Shown here: piece after piece, positions 10,336-15,776 of the stretch
Layout of the letters: each line of letters begins with the position of its first letter
Position numbering within the stretch: position 1 is the first letter of the stretch
Source: a virus
Taxonomy: Duplodnaviria; Caudoviricetes
Virus record (IMG/VR): IMGVR_UViG_3300009185_000001
Span: 64,001-128,000 of that record
Strand: one strand, 5' to 3'
Length of the DNA: 64,000 nt
Program-made: the position numbers and the translations under genes
Notes under the pieces: generated by a model
Told to the model about the DNA's origin: nothing
The model's input: the letters and a program-made list of their open reading frames with translations, nothing else
Databases searched by the model: none

Positions 10336-10647
10336 ATGGACAAAAATTCATTGATAAGAAGTCTACAAAGCAATAGGATACAGCAGCTACAATCATCAAA
10401 TAAGCCGCAAATGCCTTCAGCAACCAAGATGGCAGTTAACCTAGGCAAAAGCATAGTTAATAATGCAGCAAGTGTAATGGCAGGAAACGCATTAAAAACC
10501 GATTCTGAACAAGCAACTTCACGCTTATCCATATGTAGAGGGTGTGAATTCTTTGATTCTGGCTCTGAAAGATGCGGAAAATGTGGCTGTAATATGGCAG
10601 TTAAGACCTATCTAAGGGCTGAGAAATGCCCGATTGGTAAATGGTAA
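10336..10647 (+). CDS. Small Cys-rich protein (DUF6171-like)
   Basis: RLSICRGCEFF...RCGKCGC...KCPIGKW; ATG at 10336 avoids overlap with the upstream gene. Confidence 0.55.
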   Translation: MDKNSLIRSLQSNRIQQLQSSNKPQMPSATKMAVNLGKSIVNNAASVMAGNALKTDSEQATSRLSICRGCEFFDSGSERCGKCGCNMAVKTYLRAEKCPIGKW

Positions 10648-11218
10648 TAATTTTATCCACATAATCTTGTATAAAATCAGCATAATCATCTGCTTTATAA
10701 AAATTTTGTATTTCTATAACCACATCAGCTGCTTTTTTTAGAGAAATATTGTTATTTTTTTCAAATTTATTAGCAGGAGGAATGTCATCTCGTTCCAAAA
10801 ATACTAAAATTCCTTTTTTTTCTTCTTTCAACCAATATAGTTCGTCTCTTTCATACTCATTATATCGAATATCTGGTATAATTGGAATAAAATTCTTACC
10901 AAATTGTTTACTTTTGTTCAAAATTTCAATAAAATACCTACCTTTTGTCTGATTTCTCATGTATCTACCATATTCAACCATCAGAGGACGAACACTTTCC
11001 TTTTGCAGAGGATCATTTATGTCTATATCAGCATCTATCTTGCTAAAAATCATTTCTTGTAGATCTTTTCTAATAATATCACCTGCAATTGAACATCTTT
11101 TGGCTTTTGTATTGTATAAAAGAGCAAAATTGTAAATAAGATATGAGCATAGAGTATCTTTTCCAGATAATGCAGCACCAGCTATTCCAATCGGCGGGTA
11201 AATTATGGTTTTTGACAT
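10601..11218 (-). CDS. Deoxynucleoside monophosphate kinase (T4 gp1-like)
   Basis: IGIAGAALSGKDT P-loop; LMVEYGRYMR; IIPDIRYNEY. Confidence 0.75.
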   Translation of the reverse strand: MSKTIIYPPIGIAGAALSGKDTLCSYLIYNFALLYNTKAKRCSIAGDIIRKDLQEMIFSKIDADIDINDPLQKESVRPLMVEYGRYMRNQTKGRYFIEILNKSKQFGKNFIPIIPDIRYNEYERDELYWLKEEKKGILVFLERDDIPPANKFEKNNNISLKKAADVVIEIQNFYKADDYADFIQDYVDKIITIYQSGISQPLDRS

Positions 11219-11242: not shown

Positions 11243-12622
11243 ATGGCAGATGCAACAACAAATTCAAAAGAAATAAATCCAGTAGCACAATCTGTATTGA
11301 ATTTTTCTTCTACAATAACAAATATACTTTCTTCTGCAAAGAATTCAATCGTTAATTTGTTAGACAATGCTACTGAAGGAGTCACTATAGCTTCATTAGA
11401 ACTTCAAACGGGTCTCGGATTTGGTTCTGATGGGGTTTTATATAAGATAAAACATAGTTGTTTGCCTAATGAAAACCTTTATGCCGCTCTTCTTTTTATT
11501 TTAATAAAGGGATATGATGCTATCGGAGCACAATTTACGTTTACTGGATCAGATCCAGTAGCAATAACCCCTGATCTTTATAAATGGTTTGTTACTTGTT
11601 ACATAAAGGACAATGGATTTGAGGAAAATTTAAAAAATACTCCTGCGGGTAAGAAAGAACAGCTTCAAGATATAGGTTCGGATGGGTCTTTTACTCGATA
11701 TTCTGCTAATAATGCGGTAAACATAATGACCGGACCGGGTATTAACACTCCCTGTTTGGCTACGGATCTTTTAAATAAAATACATCCGGGTATGGTGGAT
11801 GATATTGAAAACTTTTGTAATGTCATAAGAACTCGTTCCTATCTTTCTCTTCCTTCGGATTCATTCGGTGGTTTAAATCAGGCCATGTGGTTTATAACTG
11901 GTGCTGTAACTGCATTATATCAGGGATTAGTTGAAATATATCAAGGAATGGTTCTTCTGATACAGCAGGTATATACATGGTTGAACAATATATATAGAAT
12001 GATTCAACAATTTATTACAAGTGTTATTGAACAAATAATTCCTTTAGATTTAATATGTTTAATACTTGATGCTGCACAGACAATTTTGGATGACGTTGCA
12101 TTCTTTGCTCAATTATTTAATGGTTCTGATAACCTATTTCAGACGTTAAATGCAATTCAAACCGTAGTTAACTATGCTTCATTCGGAGTTAACTTTGCAT
12201 ATGATCCATTAGGAGGATTGGCTTCTCTATTTCCTAAAGAAACACAAAGAGTTTATGACTTTATACGAAATATTGAAAACTTACCTCAAACATTTTTAGG
12301 AAAGCTTTATCAGAACATAGGATTTGGTGCGGTTTCTAACAATGAAGCACTTGCTATTGCAAATACAATAGTTCAAAGATATGGATTAGGTTCTTCTCTT
12401 GGACCATTGAATGATGTTTTATCCTCGGCGGGTACTGTTGGTAATAGAAGTAAGTGGTATAAAACATCTAATACAGGTGTTAATATAGGAAGTCCTAATT
12501 TATATTCATATTCTATACCAAATATATCAGGAAACTTGCCTCCGTTGAATATAAATCTGCAACCATTCGGATGGGTTGGTACAACAATAGAAAGTTTTAC
12601 TCCACCTCCTCCCGTAGAATAA
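11243..12622 (+). CDS. Hypothetical protein, probably virion/baseplate associated
   Basis: 459-aa ORF co-oriented with and abutting the gp5-like gene; helical and hydrophobic mid-section; no motif recognised. Confidence 0.4.
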   Translation: MADATTNSKEINPVAQSVLNFSSTITNILSSAKNSIVNLLDNATEGVTIASLELQTGLGFGSDGVLYKIKHSCLPNENLYAALLFILIKGYDAIGAQFTFTGSDPVAITPDLYKWFVTCYIKDNGFEENLKNTPAGKKEQLQDIGSDGSFTRYSANNAVNIMTGPGINTPCLATDLLNKIHPGMVDDIENFCNVIRTRSYLSLPSDSFGGLNQAMWFITGAVTALYQGLVEIYQGMVLLIQQVYTWLNNIYRMIQQFITSVIEQIIPLDLICLILDAAQTILDDVAFFAQLFNGSDNLFQTLNAIQTVVNYASFGVNFAYDPLGGLASLFPKETQRVYDFIRNIENLPQTFLGKLYQNIGFGAVSNNEALAIANTIVQRYGLGSSLGPLNDVLSSAGTVGNRSKWYKTSNTGVNIGSPNLYSYSIPNISGNLPPLNINLQPFGWVGTTIESFTPPPPVE

Positions 12623-12623
12623 T

Positions 12624-13754
12624 ATGGAACCTGTTTTTGGAAATCATTTAGGAATGGTCATTAATAATAATGATCCAGAAGGAAGAAAAAGAGTTCAAGT
12701 TTTTATTCCATATCTTACAAATACTTTATTTGCTGATTGGAATAATAAATTAAAAGATGTAACTTTTAGAACTACTGTAGATTTACAAAAATATGGTGTT
12801 TTAGATAGATTAAAACAAACTCTTCCATGGGCAGAATATGCGGCTCCAATATTTGGCGGTGCAACATCAGTAACTTCTAATTCTTCTACCGGAAAGGTTC
12901 AAGTAAATAATACCGGAACTCCAACATTTGCAGGTTTTGATGCAATGGGAGGAGTGTCGATGGTAGATACTAATTCAACTGCTTTATTGACATCAAATAA
13001 TAGTGGAAATTTGCCTCCCACAGCCGCATCTCCTTCAACTTCACAGCCAAGTTCTTTAGCTTCTGCGAAGAATAATGTGTATTTTAGAAGTAATGTTAAT
13101 AATGTTACATTAAACATAGATACGGATGGAATTGGTTCTCCTACATTTAATGATTCTACCAGACAAAACCAAACATCTGTGCAAGGATTAAATGCAAATA
13201 CTCAAAGTTTTTTTGTATTACCAAATAAACCAGAATATTATAAATATAAAGGCAAGGCTATTTATGCTAAAAATAATACAACAGGAAAAAGTATAATGGG
13301 AATTGTCGGTGATTTTGGACCTACAACTAAGGGATTTGGGGAAATGTCATTATATGCGGCTAACGAACTTGGAGTGTGGCAGGAGGGACTTGGGAATGCA
13401 GCCAATACAAGCCAAGATGTTGAATTTTTAGTTTTGGGCGACAGCCCAACATTTGGTTCTAATTTTAATCCAGAAGATCTTCAAAAAATTGCAGATTCTA
13501 ATAATTTACAATCAACACAATTGGCTTCATTAGGAAATTCTAATCAACAATCAACCTTTTCTCCAATAGATTCTCAGAATGATCCTAAAAACGGACAAGC
13601 TGCGAGAAACAATAATGCAGATACTTCCGCTTCTGGATCTCCTAATGGAACCGTTTCGGTTCCGAATGAAAGTGCAAAGGTTTGGGTTTTCTTTTATGGT
13701 GGAGATATACAAAGACCTGTTTATTTCGCATCTGCTATTGAAGGTTCAACATAA
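12624..13754 (+). CDS. gp5: gp5-like baseplate spike N-terminal OB-fold with an inserted GH75 chitosanase-like domain
   Basis: OB fold split into GMVINNNDPEGRKRVQV...LPWAE and VPNESAKVWVFFYGGDIQRPVYF; the insert carries DTDG, FFVLP, GDFGP, GEMS. Confidence 0.7.
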   Translation: MEPVFGNHLGMVINNNDPEGRKRVQVFIPYLTNTLFADWNNKLKDVTFRTTVDLQKYGVLDRLKQTLPWAEYAAPIFGGATSVTSNSSTGKVQVNNTGTPTFAGFDAMGGVSMVDTNSTALLTSNNSGNLPPTAASPSTSQPSSLASAKNNVYFRSNVNNVTLNIDTDGIGSPTFNDSTRQNQTSVQGLNANTQSFFVLPNKPEYYKYKGKAIYAKNNTTGKSIMGIVGDFGPTTKGFGEMSLYAANELGVWQEGLGNAANTSQDVEFLVLGDSPTFGSNFNPEDLQKIADSNNLQSTQLASLGNSNQQSTFSPIDSQNDPKNGQAARNNNADTSASGSPNGTVSVPNESAKVWVFFYGGDIQRPVYFASAIEGST

Positions 13755-13778
13755 ACAAATAAATACGTTTATAAAAAT

Positions 13779-15776
13779 ATGGCAAAACTACCTAATCCTC
13801 TTTTAGACGAAAAAAATGAAATAGAAGGTCATTCAATTTTTACAAAAATTGGTGGATTGCTTTTTAGAGTTTATAAAACTTTTGATAAAAAAAAATCAAA
13901 TGTTGTTAGAGATGATTCATATATAGAATTATCAAATAACGAAAAGGCTCAGTCTAAAATAAGAATATCTTCGGGTGGTCATATTTTAATAAATGCTGCG
14001 GAAAATTTAACATTAGGCTCTAGTAAACATTTTAATCTCAGTATTAAAGGAGATAAACAAGAGGTTGTTTCCGGTTCTAGTACATCATATGCAAAAGGCG
14101 ATGTAAAAAATATAAAAGGAAAACAGGGAGATTCTGAAGTTGAAGCCGCAAAAAAACTTCAAGAAGCAACTGCTAAAATACAAGAAGCAAGACTAGCTGC
14201 AATGGATAAAAAGGGAGAAATGGTTGCATGTCCTGTTTGCAATGTTACTCACTTGGTTGATAACCATAGTTCTGTAGTTCAAAATTTATTTACGTGTATT
14301 AGAAAATATGTAATACCGTATTTTTGCTTTCCTTTAGATGTAGTTGAATTTTTAGCAAAAACATTAATATCTCCTATATTAACTCCTAAAAAAAACTTAG
14401 CACTTACAGGATCGAGTGGCTGTGGAAGTCCTGCTTGTAAGGGAGGGCAGATAGAATCGCCTGTAGCAGCAACCAAGGCTGCTGATAAGGCAACTGCACA
14501 GGCAATAAAAGATAATTCAGAGAATATTTCAAAATATTCAAAACAATTAGGTTCTGGTGGTGCAGAAATTGTTCCATATAAAACAGATGTTGTTTTTAAA
14601 TCAGGATTAAAGAAAAATACTGTTCCTGCCTATAAGAAAAAAGGACATAATGTATTTGGATTGTATTTTATGCCTGGAAAAAACGGCAATGGCCATGTTT
14701 TGGCTATGGGAAGTAAGGGTAGTTGCGAAAAGGTTGTATTCTGTCCTCCGCAAAGAACACATGGTAGCGTAATGTTTGATGTTGCAAATAATTTTACAAT
14801 TAACGCAGGATCACCCGGTGTTGATATTCAAACTTCTGGAAGATTTAATGTAATGGCAGGTGATATGGTTTTAAATGCCAACGAAGGAGAAGCTGTTTTT
14901 GGTTCTGCTAATGTTACTACAATTAAAGGTAAGAACATAATCATGGATGCTAATGATATGAGTGGTGATAGTGGATTTGTTGTGCAATCTCAACACACAA
15001 TGGTTAATGGCTCATTTAACGTCAGAGGAGATGCCGCATTCAAAGGACATGTAACAATGGATGGTGCTTTATCATGCCCATATTTAATTGTTCCTAGTAT
15101 GAGAACAGAAACTACAGCAGGATCTCCTTCTAAATTTAAAATAGAAGGTCCAAATTGGGTTGGAAGTGCTGCTACACTTTCAATTGGAAATCTAGTAAAA
15201 GATATTGTATTTAGATATGTAATGTCTGGTTATATAATGACACCATCTGGAATATATTCTTTAATTTGTGAAATTTATGATACTATAATGATGTCAATGA
15301 CAATAGAATTGACGCAGACTGGAATAGGAATTGGTTTGTATTATGTTGCTGTTTTTAATTTTAAACACAATCATACAAGAGTTGGAGAAGACCATAGCCA
15401 TAGCACAACAGTTCCAAAAGCAAGTTTCTGGAATGACAGAAAGGCATGGGGGCAGGAAAGAATGGGTGGAAGTTCTATTCCCACTCCTAGTCCAGTACAC
15501 GGAGATACCTCCTCACCGGGTCCTAAATCAAAAGCTGGTGGTTGCGGTGGTGGTGGGTTATATACTAAAAATAGAAACGAAAAATATGGATTAAATGCGT
15601 TAGATCCTTACAGTGGATTGAATTATATTCCATACAATATCAAAAGAGATTCCGGTGGAAATTTAATTCCCCCACCACAATTTAGTGTAGTCTACGGAGA
15701 TACTACAACAACACCTATAACAGGAAATTATACAATCCCTGCAAATACATTACCAGCATCTGCACTAAATTGTTAG
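13779..15776 (+). CDS. gp5 C-terminal-like beta-helical spike protein
   Basis: ISSGGHILINAAENLTLGSSKHFNLSIKGDKQEVVSG-type beta-helix repeats; CxxC motifs; HNH/HSH motifs near the C-terminus. Confidence 0.55.
   Translation: MAKLPNPLLDEKNEIEGHSIFTKIGGLLFRVYKTFDKKKSNVVRDDSYIELSNNEKAQSKIRISSGGHILINAAENLTLGSSKHFNLSIKGDKQEVVSGSSTSYAKGDVKNIKGKQGDSEVEAAKKLQEATAKIQEARLAAMDKKGEMVACPVCNVTHLVDNHSSVVQNLFTCIRKYVIPYFCFPLDVVEFLAKTLISPILTPKKNLALTGSSGCGSPACKGGQIESPVAATKAADKATAQAIKDNSENISKYSKQLGSGGAEIVPYKTDVVFKSGLKKNTVPAYKKKGHNVFGLYFMPGKNGNGHVLAMGSKGSCEKVVFCPPQRTHGSVMFDVANNFTINAGSPGVDIQTSGRFNVMAGDMVLNANEGEAVFGSANVTTIKGKNIIMDANDMSGDSGFVVQSQHTMVNGSFNVRGDAAFKGHVTMDGALSCPYLIVPSMRTETTAGSPSKFKIEGPNWVGSAATLSIGNLVKDIVFRYVMSGYIMTPSGIYSLICEIYDTIMMSMTIELTQTGIGIGLYYVAVFNFKHNHTRVGEDHSHSTTVPKASFWNDRKAWGQERMGGSSIPTPSPVHGDTSSPGPKSKAGGCGGGGLYTKNRNEKYGLNALDPYSGLNYIPYNIKRDSGGNLIPPPQFSVVYGDTTTTPITGNYTIPANTLPASALNC

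What the first reader, a model, noticed from the sequence alone, without database searches (positions are those of the whole stretch)
13104..13437. GH75 chitosanase-like domain inserted in the gp5 OB-fold instead of T4 lysozyme
Seen: inside the split OB fold is VTLNIDTDG...Q.QTS...LNANTQSFFVLP...NNTTGKSIMGIVGDFGPTTKGFGEMSLYAANELG...DVEFLV. Known: Glyco_hydro_75 chitosanases show DxDxDG, L-x-A-x(3)-P/F-(Y/F)-V-V-L-P, GD-x-G-P...GE-x-S...LA..LG and DV-x-Y motifs, with a catalytic Asp/Glu pair. Candidates here are Asp at 13311 and Glu at 13341. T4 gp5 carries a GH24 lysozyme at the spike. Inference: the spike cuts de-N-acetylated, chitosan-like glycan, such as lysozyme-resistant deacetylated peptidoglycan or an aminosugar capsule. 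I do not recall this as a described tail-lysin class.
Basis: partly seen in the sequence, partly recalled or inferred. Interest (0 to 1): 0.75.

Follow-up and report, generated by a model that had tools for sequence, protein, structure and literature searches.

The report
Chitosanase-type enzyme inside phage tail spike
The tail-spike protein of an uncultured 203-kb T4-like phage carries, spliced into the middle of its core fold, a small enzyme domain of the GH75 "chitosanase" family where related phages carry ordinary cell-wall-cutting enzymes. It is therefore most likely a cell-wall-cutting tool used at infection, a role I found in no searchable paper for this family.

Summary
ORF 12624-13754 (+, 376 aa) is a gp5/gpV-type central-spike OB-fold protein. 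Its OB fold is split: residues 9-35 match Pfam PF04717 positions 2-28 and residues 336-368 match positions 39-71.

Residues about 160-272, the flagged stretch, form a compact double-psi beta-barrel domain.
- Alone it is sub-threshold for Pfam GH75 (19-22 bits against a cut-off of 27).
- A profile of 60 relatives hits the solved viral GH75 chitosanase V-Csn at E 6e-15.
- An AF2 model (pLDDT 91.7) matches V-Csn best (Z 11.9, rmsd 2.3 Å, 116 residues). It matches GH75 clusters (TM 0.78) better than RlpA-type clusters (TM 0.6).
- All four V-Csn active-site acids are kept: D166, D168, D230, E240.

A phage whose flanking DNA is 92% identical carries an unrelated insert in this slot. More distant family members carry lysozyme, amidase, M15 or M23 domains there.

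The best reading is a virion-borne cell-wall glycan hydrolase. The substrate (de-N-acetylated peptidoglycan?) is untested.

The nearest relatives of the domain are fused to type IV secretion pilins of Patescibacteria. I rate it a new variant of a known kind. This scan had already noted GH75 domains beside a baseplate hub, in prophage lysis slots and on RHS toxins in other genomes.

The parts
12624..13754 (+). Central-spike OB-fold protein (376 aa, P0001) carrying the inserted enzyme
   Evidence: ORF. PF04717 Phage_base_V scores 32.4 bits against a cut-off of 23.8, in two halves. The N-terminus weakly resembles the cyanophage A-1(L) central spike 8kea_D (E 0.01). There are 92 metagenomic homologues, nearly all with PF04717.
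12624..12878 (+). N-terminal half of the OB fold plus a conserved family block (residues 1-85)
   Evidence: Residues 9-35 match PF04717 positions 2-28. The block is conserved across 18 family members, with invariant G6, G10, V12, D17, P29, L67-P68-W69, G78-G79.
12879..13100 (+). Linker 1 (residues 86-159), rich in S/T/N/P/G
   Evidence: Read directly from the sequence. There is no conservation across the family.
13101..13439 (+). Minimal GH75-type double-psi beta-barrel domain (residues 160-272)
   Evidence: The domain HMM covers residues 160-270. The profile matches V-Csn at E 5.7e-15. The AF2 model has pLDDT 91.7. V-Csn is the best structural match, with Z 11.9, rmsd 2.3 Å and 116 residues aligned. 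GH75 clusters in the Atlas give TM 0.77-0.79.
13119..13127 (+). D166-T-D168 of the IDTDG motif. These correspond to V-Csn D34 (binding) and D36 (proposed general base).
   Evidence: HMMER aligns the motif with V-Csn AIDADG. D166 is kept in 55/60 relatives and D168 in 59/60. The roles come from PMC9485262.
13311..13313 (+). D230 (GDxGP), which corresponds to V-Csn D148
   Evidence: Alignment. Kept in 58/60 relatives, with E in the other two.
13341..13343 (+). E240 (GExS), which corresponds to V-Csn E157, the proposed proton donor
   Evidence: Alignment. Kept in 59/60 relatives. E157Q almost abolished V-Csn activity (PMC9485262).
13440..13628 (+). Linker 2 (residues 273-335), rich in N/S/Q
   Evidence: Read directly from the sequence. 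Not conserved in the family.
13629..13727 (+). C-terminal half of the OB fold (residues 336-368)
   Evidence: Matches PF04717 positions 39-71. This is the most conserved block of the family, KVWVFF.GGD.Q.P.YFA.
13000..13565 (+). Exchangeable enzyme cassette (residues about 126-314)
   Evidence: Against the syntenic relative L008, DNA is 92.6% identical over 11243-12999 and 91.9% over 13566-15776. There is no detectable similarity in between.
13779..15776 (+). Probable detached needle (beta-helix) part of the spike, a separate 665-aa gene
   Evidence: Weak matches to baseplate and gp5-type families at residues 45-155: phrog_4011 E 4e-4, phrog_27932 'baseplate hub subunit and tail lysozyme' E 6e-3, DUF2345 E 0.07. 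It is homologous (28% identity, E 2e-9) to the C-terminal 285 residues of P0125, an 857-aa protein that fuses OB-N, mini-GH75, OB-C and this part.
11243..12622 (+). Upstream gene of the same tightly packed block (459 aa), role unresolved
   Evidence: Only faint tape-measure-like PHROG matches (E 0.06-0.4). No Pfam or PDB match. It is conserved in synteny in L007 and L008.

Best explanation
ORF 12624-13754 encodes the OB-fold (gp5/gpV-type) subunit of the central tail spike of a complete 203-kb T4-like myophage. A surface loop of the OB fold holds a 190-residue exchangeable cassette: two flexible low-complexity linkers flanking a 113-residue minimal GH75-type double-psi beta-barrel glycosidase. 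It corresponds to Domain-1 of V-Csn without the 70-residue Domain-2.

Shown: the domain identity, the fold, retention of all four active-site acids, the split-OB topology, and the cassette exchange with other muralytic domains.

Inferred: after sheath contraction drives the spike through the outer layers, the tethered domains hydrolyse beta-1,4 bonds of the host cell-wall glycan. E240 would act as general acid and D168 as general base (an inverting mechanism, as proposed for V-Csn). This opens a local hole for the tail tube, which is the job done by the GH24 lysozyme of T4 gp5.

More speculative: because GH75 subsites read free amino groups through acidic side chains (D166 and D230 here), the preferred substrate may be a glycan containing glucosamine, such as N-deacetylated, lysozyme-resistant peptidoglycan.
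For: Spike identity:
- PF04717 scores above its cut-off, in two halves.
- The neighbourhood is a myophage block with large terminase, tail tube and gp32 on a complete 202,880-bp virus record with terminal repeats.

GH75 identity:
- The profile of 60 relatives matches V-Csn 7TVL/7TVM at E 5.7e-15, with GDxGP and GExS aligned and IDxDG aligned across the missing Domain-2.
- 17 of 60 relatives hit PF07335 (best E 3e-10), against 3 for DPBB_1.
- The AF2 model has pLDDT 91.7.
- V-Csn is the top Foldseek hit (probability 1.0) and the top VIA hit (Z 11.9, rmsd 2.3 Å, 116 residues aligned, 26% identity).
- ESM Atlas GH75 clusters give TM 0.77-0.79, against 0.58-0.61 for RlpA/DPBB_1 clusters.

Catalytic competence:
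- D166 is kept in 55/60 relatives, D168 in 59/60, D230 in 58/60 and E240 in 59/60.

Cell-wall role:
- The same slot holds Phage_lysozyme (P0050 residues 144-265), Amidase_2, Peptidase_M15 or Peptidase_M23 in other family members, always before the C-terminal OB half. There are weak SLT and 3D matches in closer relatives.
- A 92%-identical phage has a different insert with sharp DNA boundaries.
- Cellular relatives of the domain are fused to PG_binding_1 (P0103) and CHAP (P0152).
- A double-psi-barrel 'endoglucanase' domain of the cyanophage A-1(L) baseplate hub, which my model matches at Z 9.2, lyses EDTA-treated host cells (PMC10966104).
Against: - No activity data exist for this domain or any member of its subfamily.
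- The protein alone fails the Pfam GH75 gathering score (19-22 bits against 27). It matches V-Csn only at E 0.08 as a single sequence.
- It lacks V-Csn Domain-2, which forms one wall of the substrate cleft (PMC9485262). The cleft and specificity may therefore differ.
- The only demonstrated GH75 substrate is chitosan, not peptidoglycan.
- The host is unknown, so I cannot say whether its wall contains glucosamine.
- The full-length model failed (pLDDT 31). The way the domain sits on the trimeric spike is therefore not modelled.
- Virion incorporation is inferred from homology, not shown.
Confidence: 0.75

Rival explanations
1. The domain is a lytic transglycosylase of the RlpA / MltA-3D type. 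It would be a double-psi barrel that cuts MurNAc-GlcNAc bonds non-hydrolytically using a single acid (E240), not a GH75-type hydrolase.
For: It has the same fold class. RlpA-like phage proteins and PA4485 appear among the structural matches. 3 of 60 relatives weakly hit DPBB_1. A close scaffold relative (P0008) has a faint 3D-domain match in the same slot (E 0.065).
Against: Sequence and structure are clearly nearer to GH75. V-Csn scores E 6e-15 against 1.8e-3 for PA4485. TM is 0.78 against 0.6. Z is 11.9 against 9.5. The second carboxylate, D168, which corresponds to the proposed GH75 base and which a lytic transglycosylase does not need, is kept in 59/60 relatives.
Confidence: 0.1
2. The domain is a depolymerase for a glucosamine-containing surface polysaccharide (a capsule, sheath or partly deacetylated exopolysaccharide), not for peptidoglycan.
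For: The only proven GH75 activity is on chitosan (PMC9485262). Phages often carry virion glycanases against capsules (PMC5380687, listed).
Against: By established knowledge, capsule depolymerases normally sit on tail fibres or spikes at the periphery, not in the central membrane-piercing spike. Every recognisable alternative occupant of this slot is a peptidoglycan hydrolase. Cellular relatives carry PG_binding_1 or CHAP.
Confidence: 0.1
3. The domain is a non-catalytic, expansin- or loosenin-like binding module that only anchors or orients the spike on the wall glycan.
For: Loosenin, kiwellin, expansins and the papain inhibitor, which are mostly non-hydrolytic double-psi barrels, score Z 9-10.7.
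Against: All four acidic residues of the GH75 active site are kept under strong conservation. Expansins lack the base (PMC9485262).
Confidence: 0.04
4. It is an auxiliary metabolic chitosanase that releases nutrients from fungal or arthropod chitosan, as proposed for V-Csn.
For: It is homologous to V-Csn, which was published as an auxiliary metabolic gene product (PMC9485262).
Against: The domain is not a free gene. It is built into an essential virion protein between the two halves of its OB fold, and it is exchanged with muralytic domains.
Confidence: 0.01

Closest known systems
V-Csn, soil-virus GH75 endo-chitosanase (PDB 7TVL-7TVP; Wu et al. 2022, PMC9485262)
   Same: Homologous double-psi beta-barrel Domain-1: profile E 6e-15, Z 11.9, rmsd 2.3 Å over 116 residues, 26% identity. 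The motifs IDxDG, GDxGP and GExS and all four acids are kept.
   Different: V-Csn is a free 224-aa protein with an extra 72-residue Domain-2 and was read as a metabolic gene. That paper never mentions peptidoglycan, lysis or endolysin. Here the domain is minimal (113 aa), lacks Domain-2 and is embedded in a tail-spike protein.
Phage T4 gp5 (OB fold + GH24 lysozyme + beta-helix needle)
   Same: A central-spike OB-fold protein carrying a cell-wall glycosidase. One relative of this family even carries a PF00959 lysozyme (P0050).
   Different: By established knowledge, in T4 the lysozyme follows a contiguous OB fold and the beta-helix is in the same polypeptide. Here the enzyme interrupts the OB fold, the fold class is a double-psi barrel, and the needle appears to be a separate gene (13779-15776). 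That gene is fused to the spike in P0125.
Cyanophage A-1(L) baseplate: central spike gp25 and hub gp15 with an 'endoglucanase' domain (PDB 8KEA; PMC10966104)
   Same: The N-terminus of the spike resembles gp25 (E 0.01). Residues 285-399 of gp15 form a double-psi barrel that my model matches (Z 9.2). That domain lysed EDTA-treated Anabaena cells, which is experimental precedent for a baseplate-borne barrel glycanase.
   Different: In A-1(L) the barrel domain is in the hub, not the spike. It has no detectable sequence similarity to this domain (it is absent) and was compared with GH45 endoglucanases, not GH75.
RlpA / MltA 3D-domain lytic transglycosylases and RlpA-like phage proteins
   Same: Double-psi barrel fold acting on peptidoglycan glycan strands. 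They are present in phages.
   Different: Structural similarity is lower (TM about 0.6 against 0.78). This protein has no Pfam DPBB_1 or 3D match. By established knowledge they use a single-acid, non-hydrolytic mechanism.
Vibrio cholerae VgrG3 (T6SS spike with a chitosanase/lysozyme-like peptidoglycan hydrolase domain; cited in PMC12663445)
   Same: A contractile-machine spike carrying a 'chitosanase-like' domain that degrades peptidoglycan.
   Different: According to that paper's references, the VgrG3 domain belongs to the helical lysozyme/GH46-type fold and is a C-terminal extension. It is not an insertion in the OB fold.
T4SS-pilin-GH75-like fusion proteins of Patescibacteria (for example P0092, P0096, P0099)
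   Same: These are the nearest sequence relatives of the insert: 40-58% identity, E down to 1e-25. 33 of 59 relatives carry a pilin-like module. Genomic hits lie in Saccharibacteria, Paceibacterota and other Patescibacteria assemblies.
   Different: They are cellular membrane-anchored proteins with the domain at the C-terminus. Their function has not been studied.

Membership tests
GH75 (CAZy) / Pfam PF07335 Glyco_hydro_75 | Score at or above the Pfam gathering threshold (27 bits) | tested here: not met
   19.4 bits for the whole protein and 21.2-21.6 bits for the domain alone. 17 of 60 relatives match at E<0.01, best 3.1e-10. I therefore file it as a divergent GH75-related subfamily, not a canonical Pfam member.
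GH75 (CAZy) / Pfam PF07335 Glyco_hydro_75 | Significant sequence homology to a biochemically characterised GH75 enzyme | tested here: met
   The profile of 60 relatives against V-Csn gives E 5.7e-15 and 58.5 bits. As a single sequence the E-value is only 0.076.
GH75 (CAZy) / Pfam PF07335 Glyco_hydro_75 | Double-psi beta-barrel catalytic domain that is closest in structure to GH75 | tested here: met
   The model has pLDDT 91.7. V-Csn is top by Foldseek and by VIA, with Z 11.9. GH75 clusters give TM 0.77-0.79, against 0.6 or less for RlpA clusters.
GH75 (CAZy) / Pfam PF07335 Glyco_hydro_75 | Active-site acids equivalent to V-Csn D34, D36, D148 and E157 | tested here: met
   D166, D168, D230 and E240 correspond by HMMER alignment. 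They are 92-98% conserved in the subfamily.
GH75 (CAZy) / Pfam PF07335 Glyco_hydro_75 | Inverting endo-hydrolysis of GlcN-GlcN bonds in chitosan | not testable with these tools
   This needs an enzyme assay.
gp5 / gpV / VgrG-type spike OB domain (PF04717 Phage_base_V) | Pfam match above the gathering score | tested here: met
   32.4 bits against 23.8. Residues 9-35 match positions 2-28 and residues 336-368 match positions 39-71.
gp5 / gpV / VgrG-type spike OB domain (PF04717 Phage_base_V) | Followed by a beta-helical needle | tested here: inconclusive
   The needle is not in this polypeptide. The next ORF has only weak gp5/VgrG-type matches, but it is fused to an OB-GH75-OB protein in P0125.
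T4 gp5 architecture | The enzyme domain is placed after a contiguous OB fold | tested here: not met
   The enzyme lies between the two OB halves. The T4 layout itself comes from established knowledge.
Virion-associated peptidoglycan hydrolases | The catalytic domain is part of a virion structural protein | tested here: met
   The domain is fused inside the spike OB protein. Actual presence in virions was not tested.
Virion-associated peptidoglycan hydrolases | Degrades peptidoglycan | not testable with these tools
   Support is by context only.
RlpA / 3D lytic transglycosylases (PF03330, PF06725) | Pfam match of this protein | tested here: not met
   No DPBB_1 or 3D hit at E up to 10. The structural match is weaker than to GH75.

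The most novel reading that the evidence does not exclude
Viral GH75 'chitosanases' as a whole are an overlooked class of bacterial cell-wall lysins specialised for glucosamine-containing (N-deacetylated, lysozyme-resistant) peptidoglycan, not nutrient-releasing metabolic genes. This spike cassette was exchanged with the type IV secretion pilin-fused enzymes of Patescibacteria, which points to an ecological link between this jumbo phage and ultrasmall bacteria or their hosts.
Probability: 0.3. Interest if true: 0.7.

Novelty: new variant of a known kind. Interest (0 to 1): 0.52.

Why it matters
Enzyme-armed tail spikes are textbook, but the enzymes described so far are lysozymes, lytic transglycosylases, amidases and peptidases. 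A GH75-type barrel in that position has three consequences.

First, it gives the GH75 family an unambiguous structural (infection) context in a virus. This challenges the published reading of viral GH75 genes as carbon-cycling auxiliary metabolic genes, and it matters for soil and freshwater virome inventories.

Second, it suggests a lysin chemistry that could act on N-deacetylated peptidoglycan, which resists lysozyme. That is of practical interest for enzybiotics.

Third, the sharp cassette boundaries in 92%-identical phages show a natural plug-in slot in the spike OB fold. This is useful for understanding, and for studying in laboratory phages, how tail lysins are swapped.

Tried and rejected
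- The full-length single-sequence AF2 model failed (pLDDT 31), so I did not use it. I could not model the OB halves closing or the trimer.
- There is no DNA or protein match in the GenBank phage collection.
- PHROGs gave nothing for this protein.
- Two IMG/VR scans, one with the subfamily alignment and one with the domain itself, found no further viral loci. The pattern method is insensitive, so this is not evidence of absence.
- The first genome-collection call failed because the alignment was too diverse. A narrower alignment worked.
- Promoter and terminator scans and a search for T4 late-promoter TATAAATA boxes were at chance level and gave no expression evidence.
- PDB sequence searches of the two neighbouring proteins found nothing.
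- The domain tree is poorly resolved. It cannot show the direction of transfer, or whether the two spike lineages (P0001 and P0125) acquired the domain once or twice.
- I did not attempt host identification and did not use complex prediction.

Full report
**What is there**

The flagged stretch, 13104-13437, encodes residues 161-271 of the 376-aa product of ORF 12624-13754 on the + strand. The window is bases 64001-128000 of a complete 202,880-bp virus record with direct terminal repeats. The surrounding genes include a T4-type large terminase, a tail tube protein and a gp32-like single-strand-binding protein. This is therefore a large T4-like myophage known only from metagenomes, and it has no match in the GenBank phage collection.

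The ORF sits in a tightly packed co-oriented block: 11243-12622, 12624-13754 and 13779-15776.

**The scaffold**

Pfam finds the gp5/gpV/VgrG-type OB domain (PF04717) above its curated cut-off, 32.4 bits against 23.8, but in two pieces. Residues 9-35 match profile positions 2-28. Residues 336-368 match positions 39-71 of 75. The N-terminus also weakly resembles the central spike of cyanophage A-1(L) (8kea_D, E 0.01).

An alignment of 18 family members shows two strongly conserved blocks, residues 1-85 and 336-370. About 250 unalignable residues lie between them.

**The insert**

On its own the insert is only sub-threshold for Pfam GH75: 19.4-21.6 bits against 27, E about 3e-4. As a single sequence it finds the solved viral GH75 enzyme V-Csn only at E 0.08.

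An exhaustive HMMER search of 1.84 billion representatives with residues 150-285 found 61 relatives, with E down to 1e-25. A profile of 60 of them (alignment A2) gives these results:
- It matches V-Csn (7TVL/7TVM) at E 5.7e-15. GDxGP and GExS are aligned, and the IDxDG motif aligns as a second piece on the far side of V-Csn Domain-2.
- 17 of the 60 relatives hit PF07335, with a best E of 3e-10. Three hit DPBB_1.

An AF2 model built on that alignment is confident, with pLDDT 91.7 and pTM 0.85.
- Its best solved match is V-Csn. Foldseek gives probability 1.0. VIA-align gives Z 11.9, rmsd 2.3 Å, 116 residues and 26% identity over chain residues 24-190.
- Generic double-psi barrels follow: kiwellin (Z 10.7), loosenin (Z 10.0), PA4485 (Z 9.5) and expansins (Z 9).
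- In the ESM Atlas the nearest clusters are GH75 families (TM 0.77-0.79). There is a clear gap to RlpA/DPBB_1 clusters (TM 0.58-0.61).

The domain is thus a minimal GH75-type barrel. It is equivalent to V-Csn Domain-1 and lacks the 72-residue Domain-2.

**Active site**

According to the V-Csn structure paper (PMC9485262):
- E157 is the proton donor, and E157Q is nearly dead.
- D36 is the proposed base.
- D34 and D148 bind substrate, and D148N loses only five-fold activity.

The equivalents here are E240, D168, D166 and D230. In the 60-member subfamily they are kept in 59, 59, 55 and 58 sequences respectively.

The glutamate is right. The more likely partner is D168 (13125-13127).

**Why a cell-wall lysin**

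- The domain is not a free gene. It lies inside an essential virion protein.
- The slot is a cassette site. A syntenic relative (L008) is 92.6% identical in DNA over 11243-12999 and 91.9% over 13566-15776. It has no similarity across 13000-13565 (residues about 126-314), where it encodes an unrelated insert.
- In other members of the spike family the same position, before the C-terminal OB half, holds one of four domains: Phage_lysozyme (P0050 residues 144-265), Amidase_2 (P0062), Peptidase_M15 (P0070) or Peptidase_M23 (P0072). Closer relatives give weak SLT or 3D matches.
- Only three of 93 family members (this protein, P0002 and P0003) carry a strong mini-GH75 insert. An 857-aa relative outside that length range (P0125) also carries it.
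- Cellular relatives of the domain are fused to PG_binding_1 (P0103) and CHAP (P0152). [quoted passage not shown]
- There is experimental precedent for a baseplate-borne barrel glycanase. The 'endoglucanase' domain of the A-1(L) hub gp15, which my model matches at Z 9.2 over residues 285-399, lyses EDTA-treated Anabaena (PMC10966104).

**Mechanism proposed**

Long linkers rich in S, T, N and P (residues 86-159 and 273-335) tether one barrel per subunit to the trimeric spike. After contraction, the domains would hydrolyse wall glycan around the puncture, with E240 as acid and D168 as base.

A preference for glucosamine-containing (N-deacetylated) peptidoglycan is an inference from the GH75 acidic subsites and from the only proven GH75 substrate, chitosan. 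It is not shown.

Rivals are a lytic-transglycosylase mechanism, a capsule depolymerase, a non-catalytic binder and an auxiliary metabolic chitosanase. They are weighed in their own sections. The first can only be separated from the best explanation by product analysis.

**The rest of the spike**

This protein ends right after the OB fold. The next gene (13779-15776, 665 aa) has weak gp5/VgrG-type matches at residues 45-155. It is homologous (28% identity, E 2e-9) to the C-terminal part of P0125.

In a syntenic phage contig (L009), P0125 joins OB-N, mini-GH75 (residues 124-223), OB-C (residues 283-320) and this region in one 857-aa chain. The gp5 equivalent is therefore probably split into two genes here.

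**Origin of the cassette**

The nearest relatives of the insert are not other spike inserts. They are C-terminal domains of membrane proteins with a type IV secretion pilin module. PF18895 is present in P0096, P0099 and P0121 and is sub-threshold in P0097. A pilin-like module occurs in 33 of 59 relatives.

Genomic hits lie in Saccharibacteria, Paceibacterota and other Patescibacteria assemblies. In a poorly resolved tree both spike domains fall inside this group and do not pair with each other. The direction of transfer cannot be decided.

**Comparison with what is known, and novelty**

Spikes armed with enzymes are well known: T4 gp5, and VgrG3 with a lysozyme/GH46-like 'chitosanase' domain (PMC12663445). 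Double-psi barrels in phage baseplates also exist (A-1(L) gp15 and RlpA-like proteins).

I found no paper describing a GH75 domain as a tail, baseplate or virion lysin. The V-Csn paper treats the family as a metabolic gene and never mentions peptidoglycan, lysis or endolysin. A 2026 preprint on soil viral CAZymes still lists GH75 outside the lysis and structural classes.

I rate this a new variant of a known kind.

Earlier AI notes of this scan, which are unchecked leads and not evidence, had already flagged related cases in other genomes:
- GH75 beside a baseplate hub in another freshwater T4-like phage.
- GH75 in a prophage lysis slot.
- GH75 on RHS toxins.
- GH75 fused to Patescibacteria pilins.
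- SLT-like inserts inside split gp5 OB folds.

My own tests agree with the pilin fusion and with the split-OB cassette layout.

Noticed in passing
window 13779-15776 (+); L009:1138-3711: The gp5 equivalent seems split into two genes here: the OB-plus-enzyme gene and a 665-aa needle-like protein. In a related phage contig both are fused in one 857-aa protein (P0125). The 665-aa protein has Cys-rich motifs (CPVC, GCGSPAC) and a His-rich HNH..DHSHS stretch that might bind metal like other spike tips (recalled, not tested).
   Followed up: partly
P0092, P0096, P0097, P0099, P0121; L002-L006: The mini-GH75 domain is mostly found at the C-terminus of type IV secretion pilin-like membrane proteins of Patescibacteria (Saccharibacteria, Paceibacterota). 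33 of 59 relatives have the pilin module. Other relatives carry PG_binding_1 or CHAP. This could be a wall-cutting tool of episymbiotic bacteria, and it hints at gene flow between them and this phage group.
   Followed up: partly
L008:3377-3933 (P0004 residues about 126-311): The alternative cassette in the 92%-identical phage has no Pfam match at E up to 1. By eye it has a motif reminiscent of SleB/CwlJ-type cell-wall hydrolases (recalled, not tested). It may be another unannotated lysin family.
   Followed up: no
window 13434-13449 (+): A terminator-like GC hairpin (TTGGGC-GACA-GCCCAA) lies inside the ORF at the 3' edge of the GH75 domain, about 120 nt before the right cassette boundary. It is probably chance, but it sits at a domain border.
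   Followed up: no
window 10601-11218 (-): A 205-aa ORF on the opposite strand just upstream of the spike block starts with a P-loop-like GxxGxGKD motif. It is conserved in synteny in L007 and L008. Its function was not examined.
   Followed up: no
ESM Atlas clusters, row 1: A bacterial GH75 cluster, commonest in Cyanobacteriota, carries SH3_3 wall-binding domains in 16% of members. This is another hint that cellular GH75 proteins act on bacterial walls.
   Followed up: no
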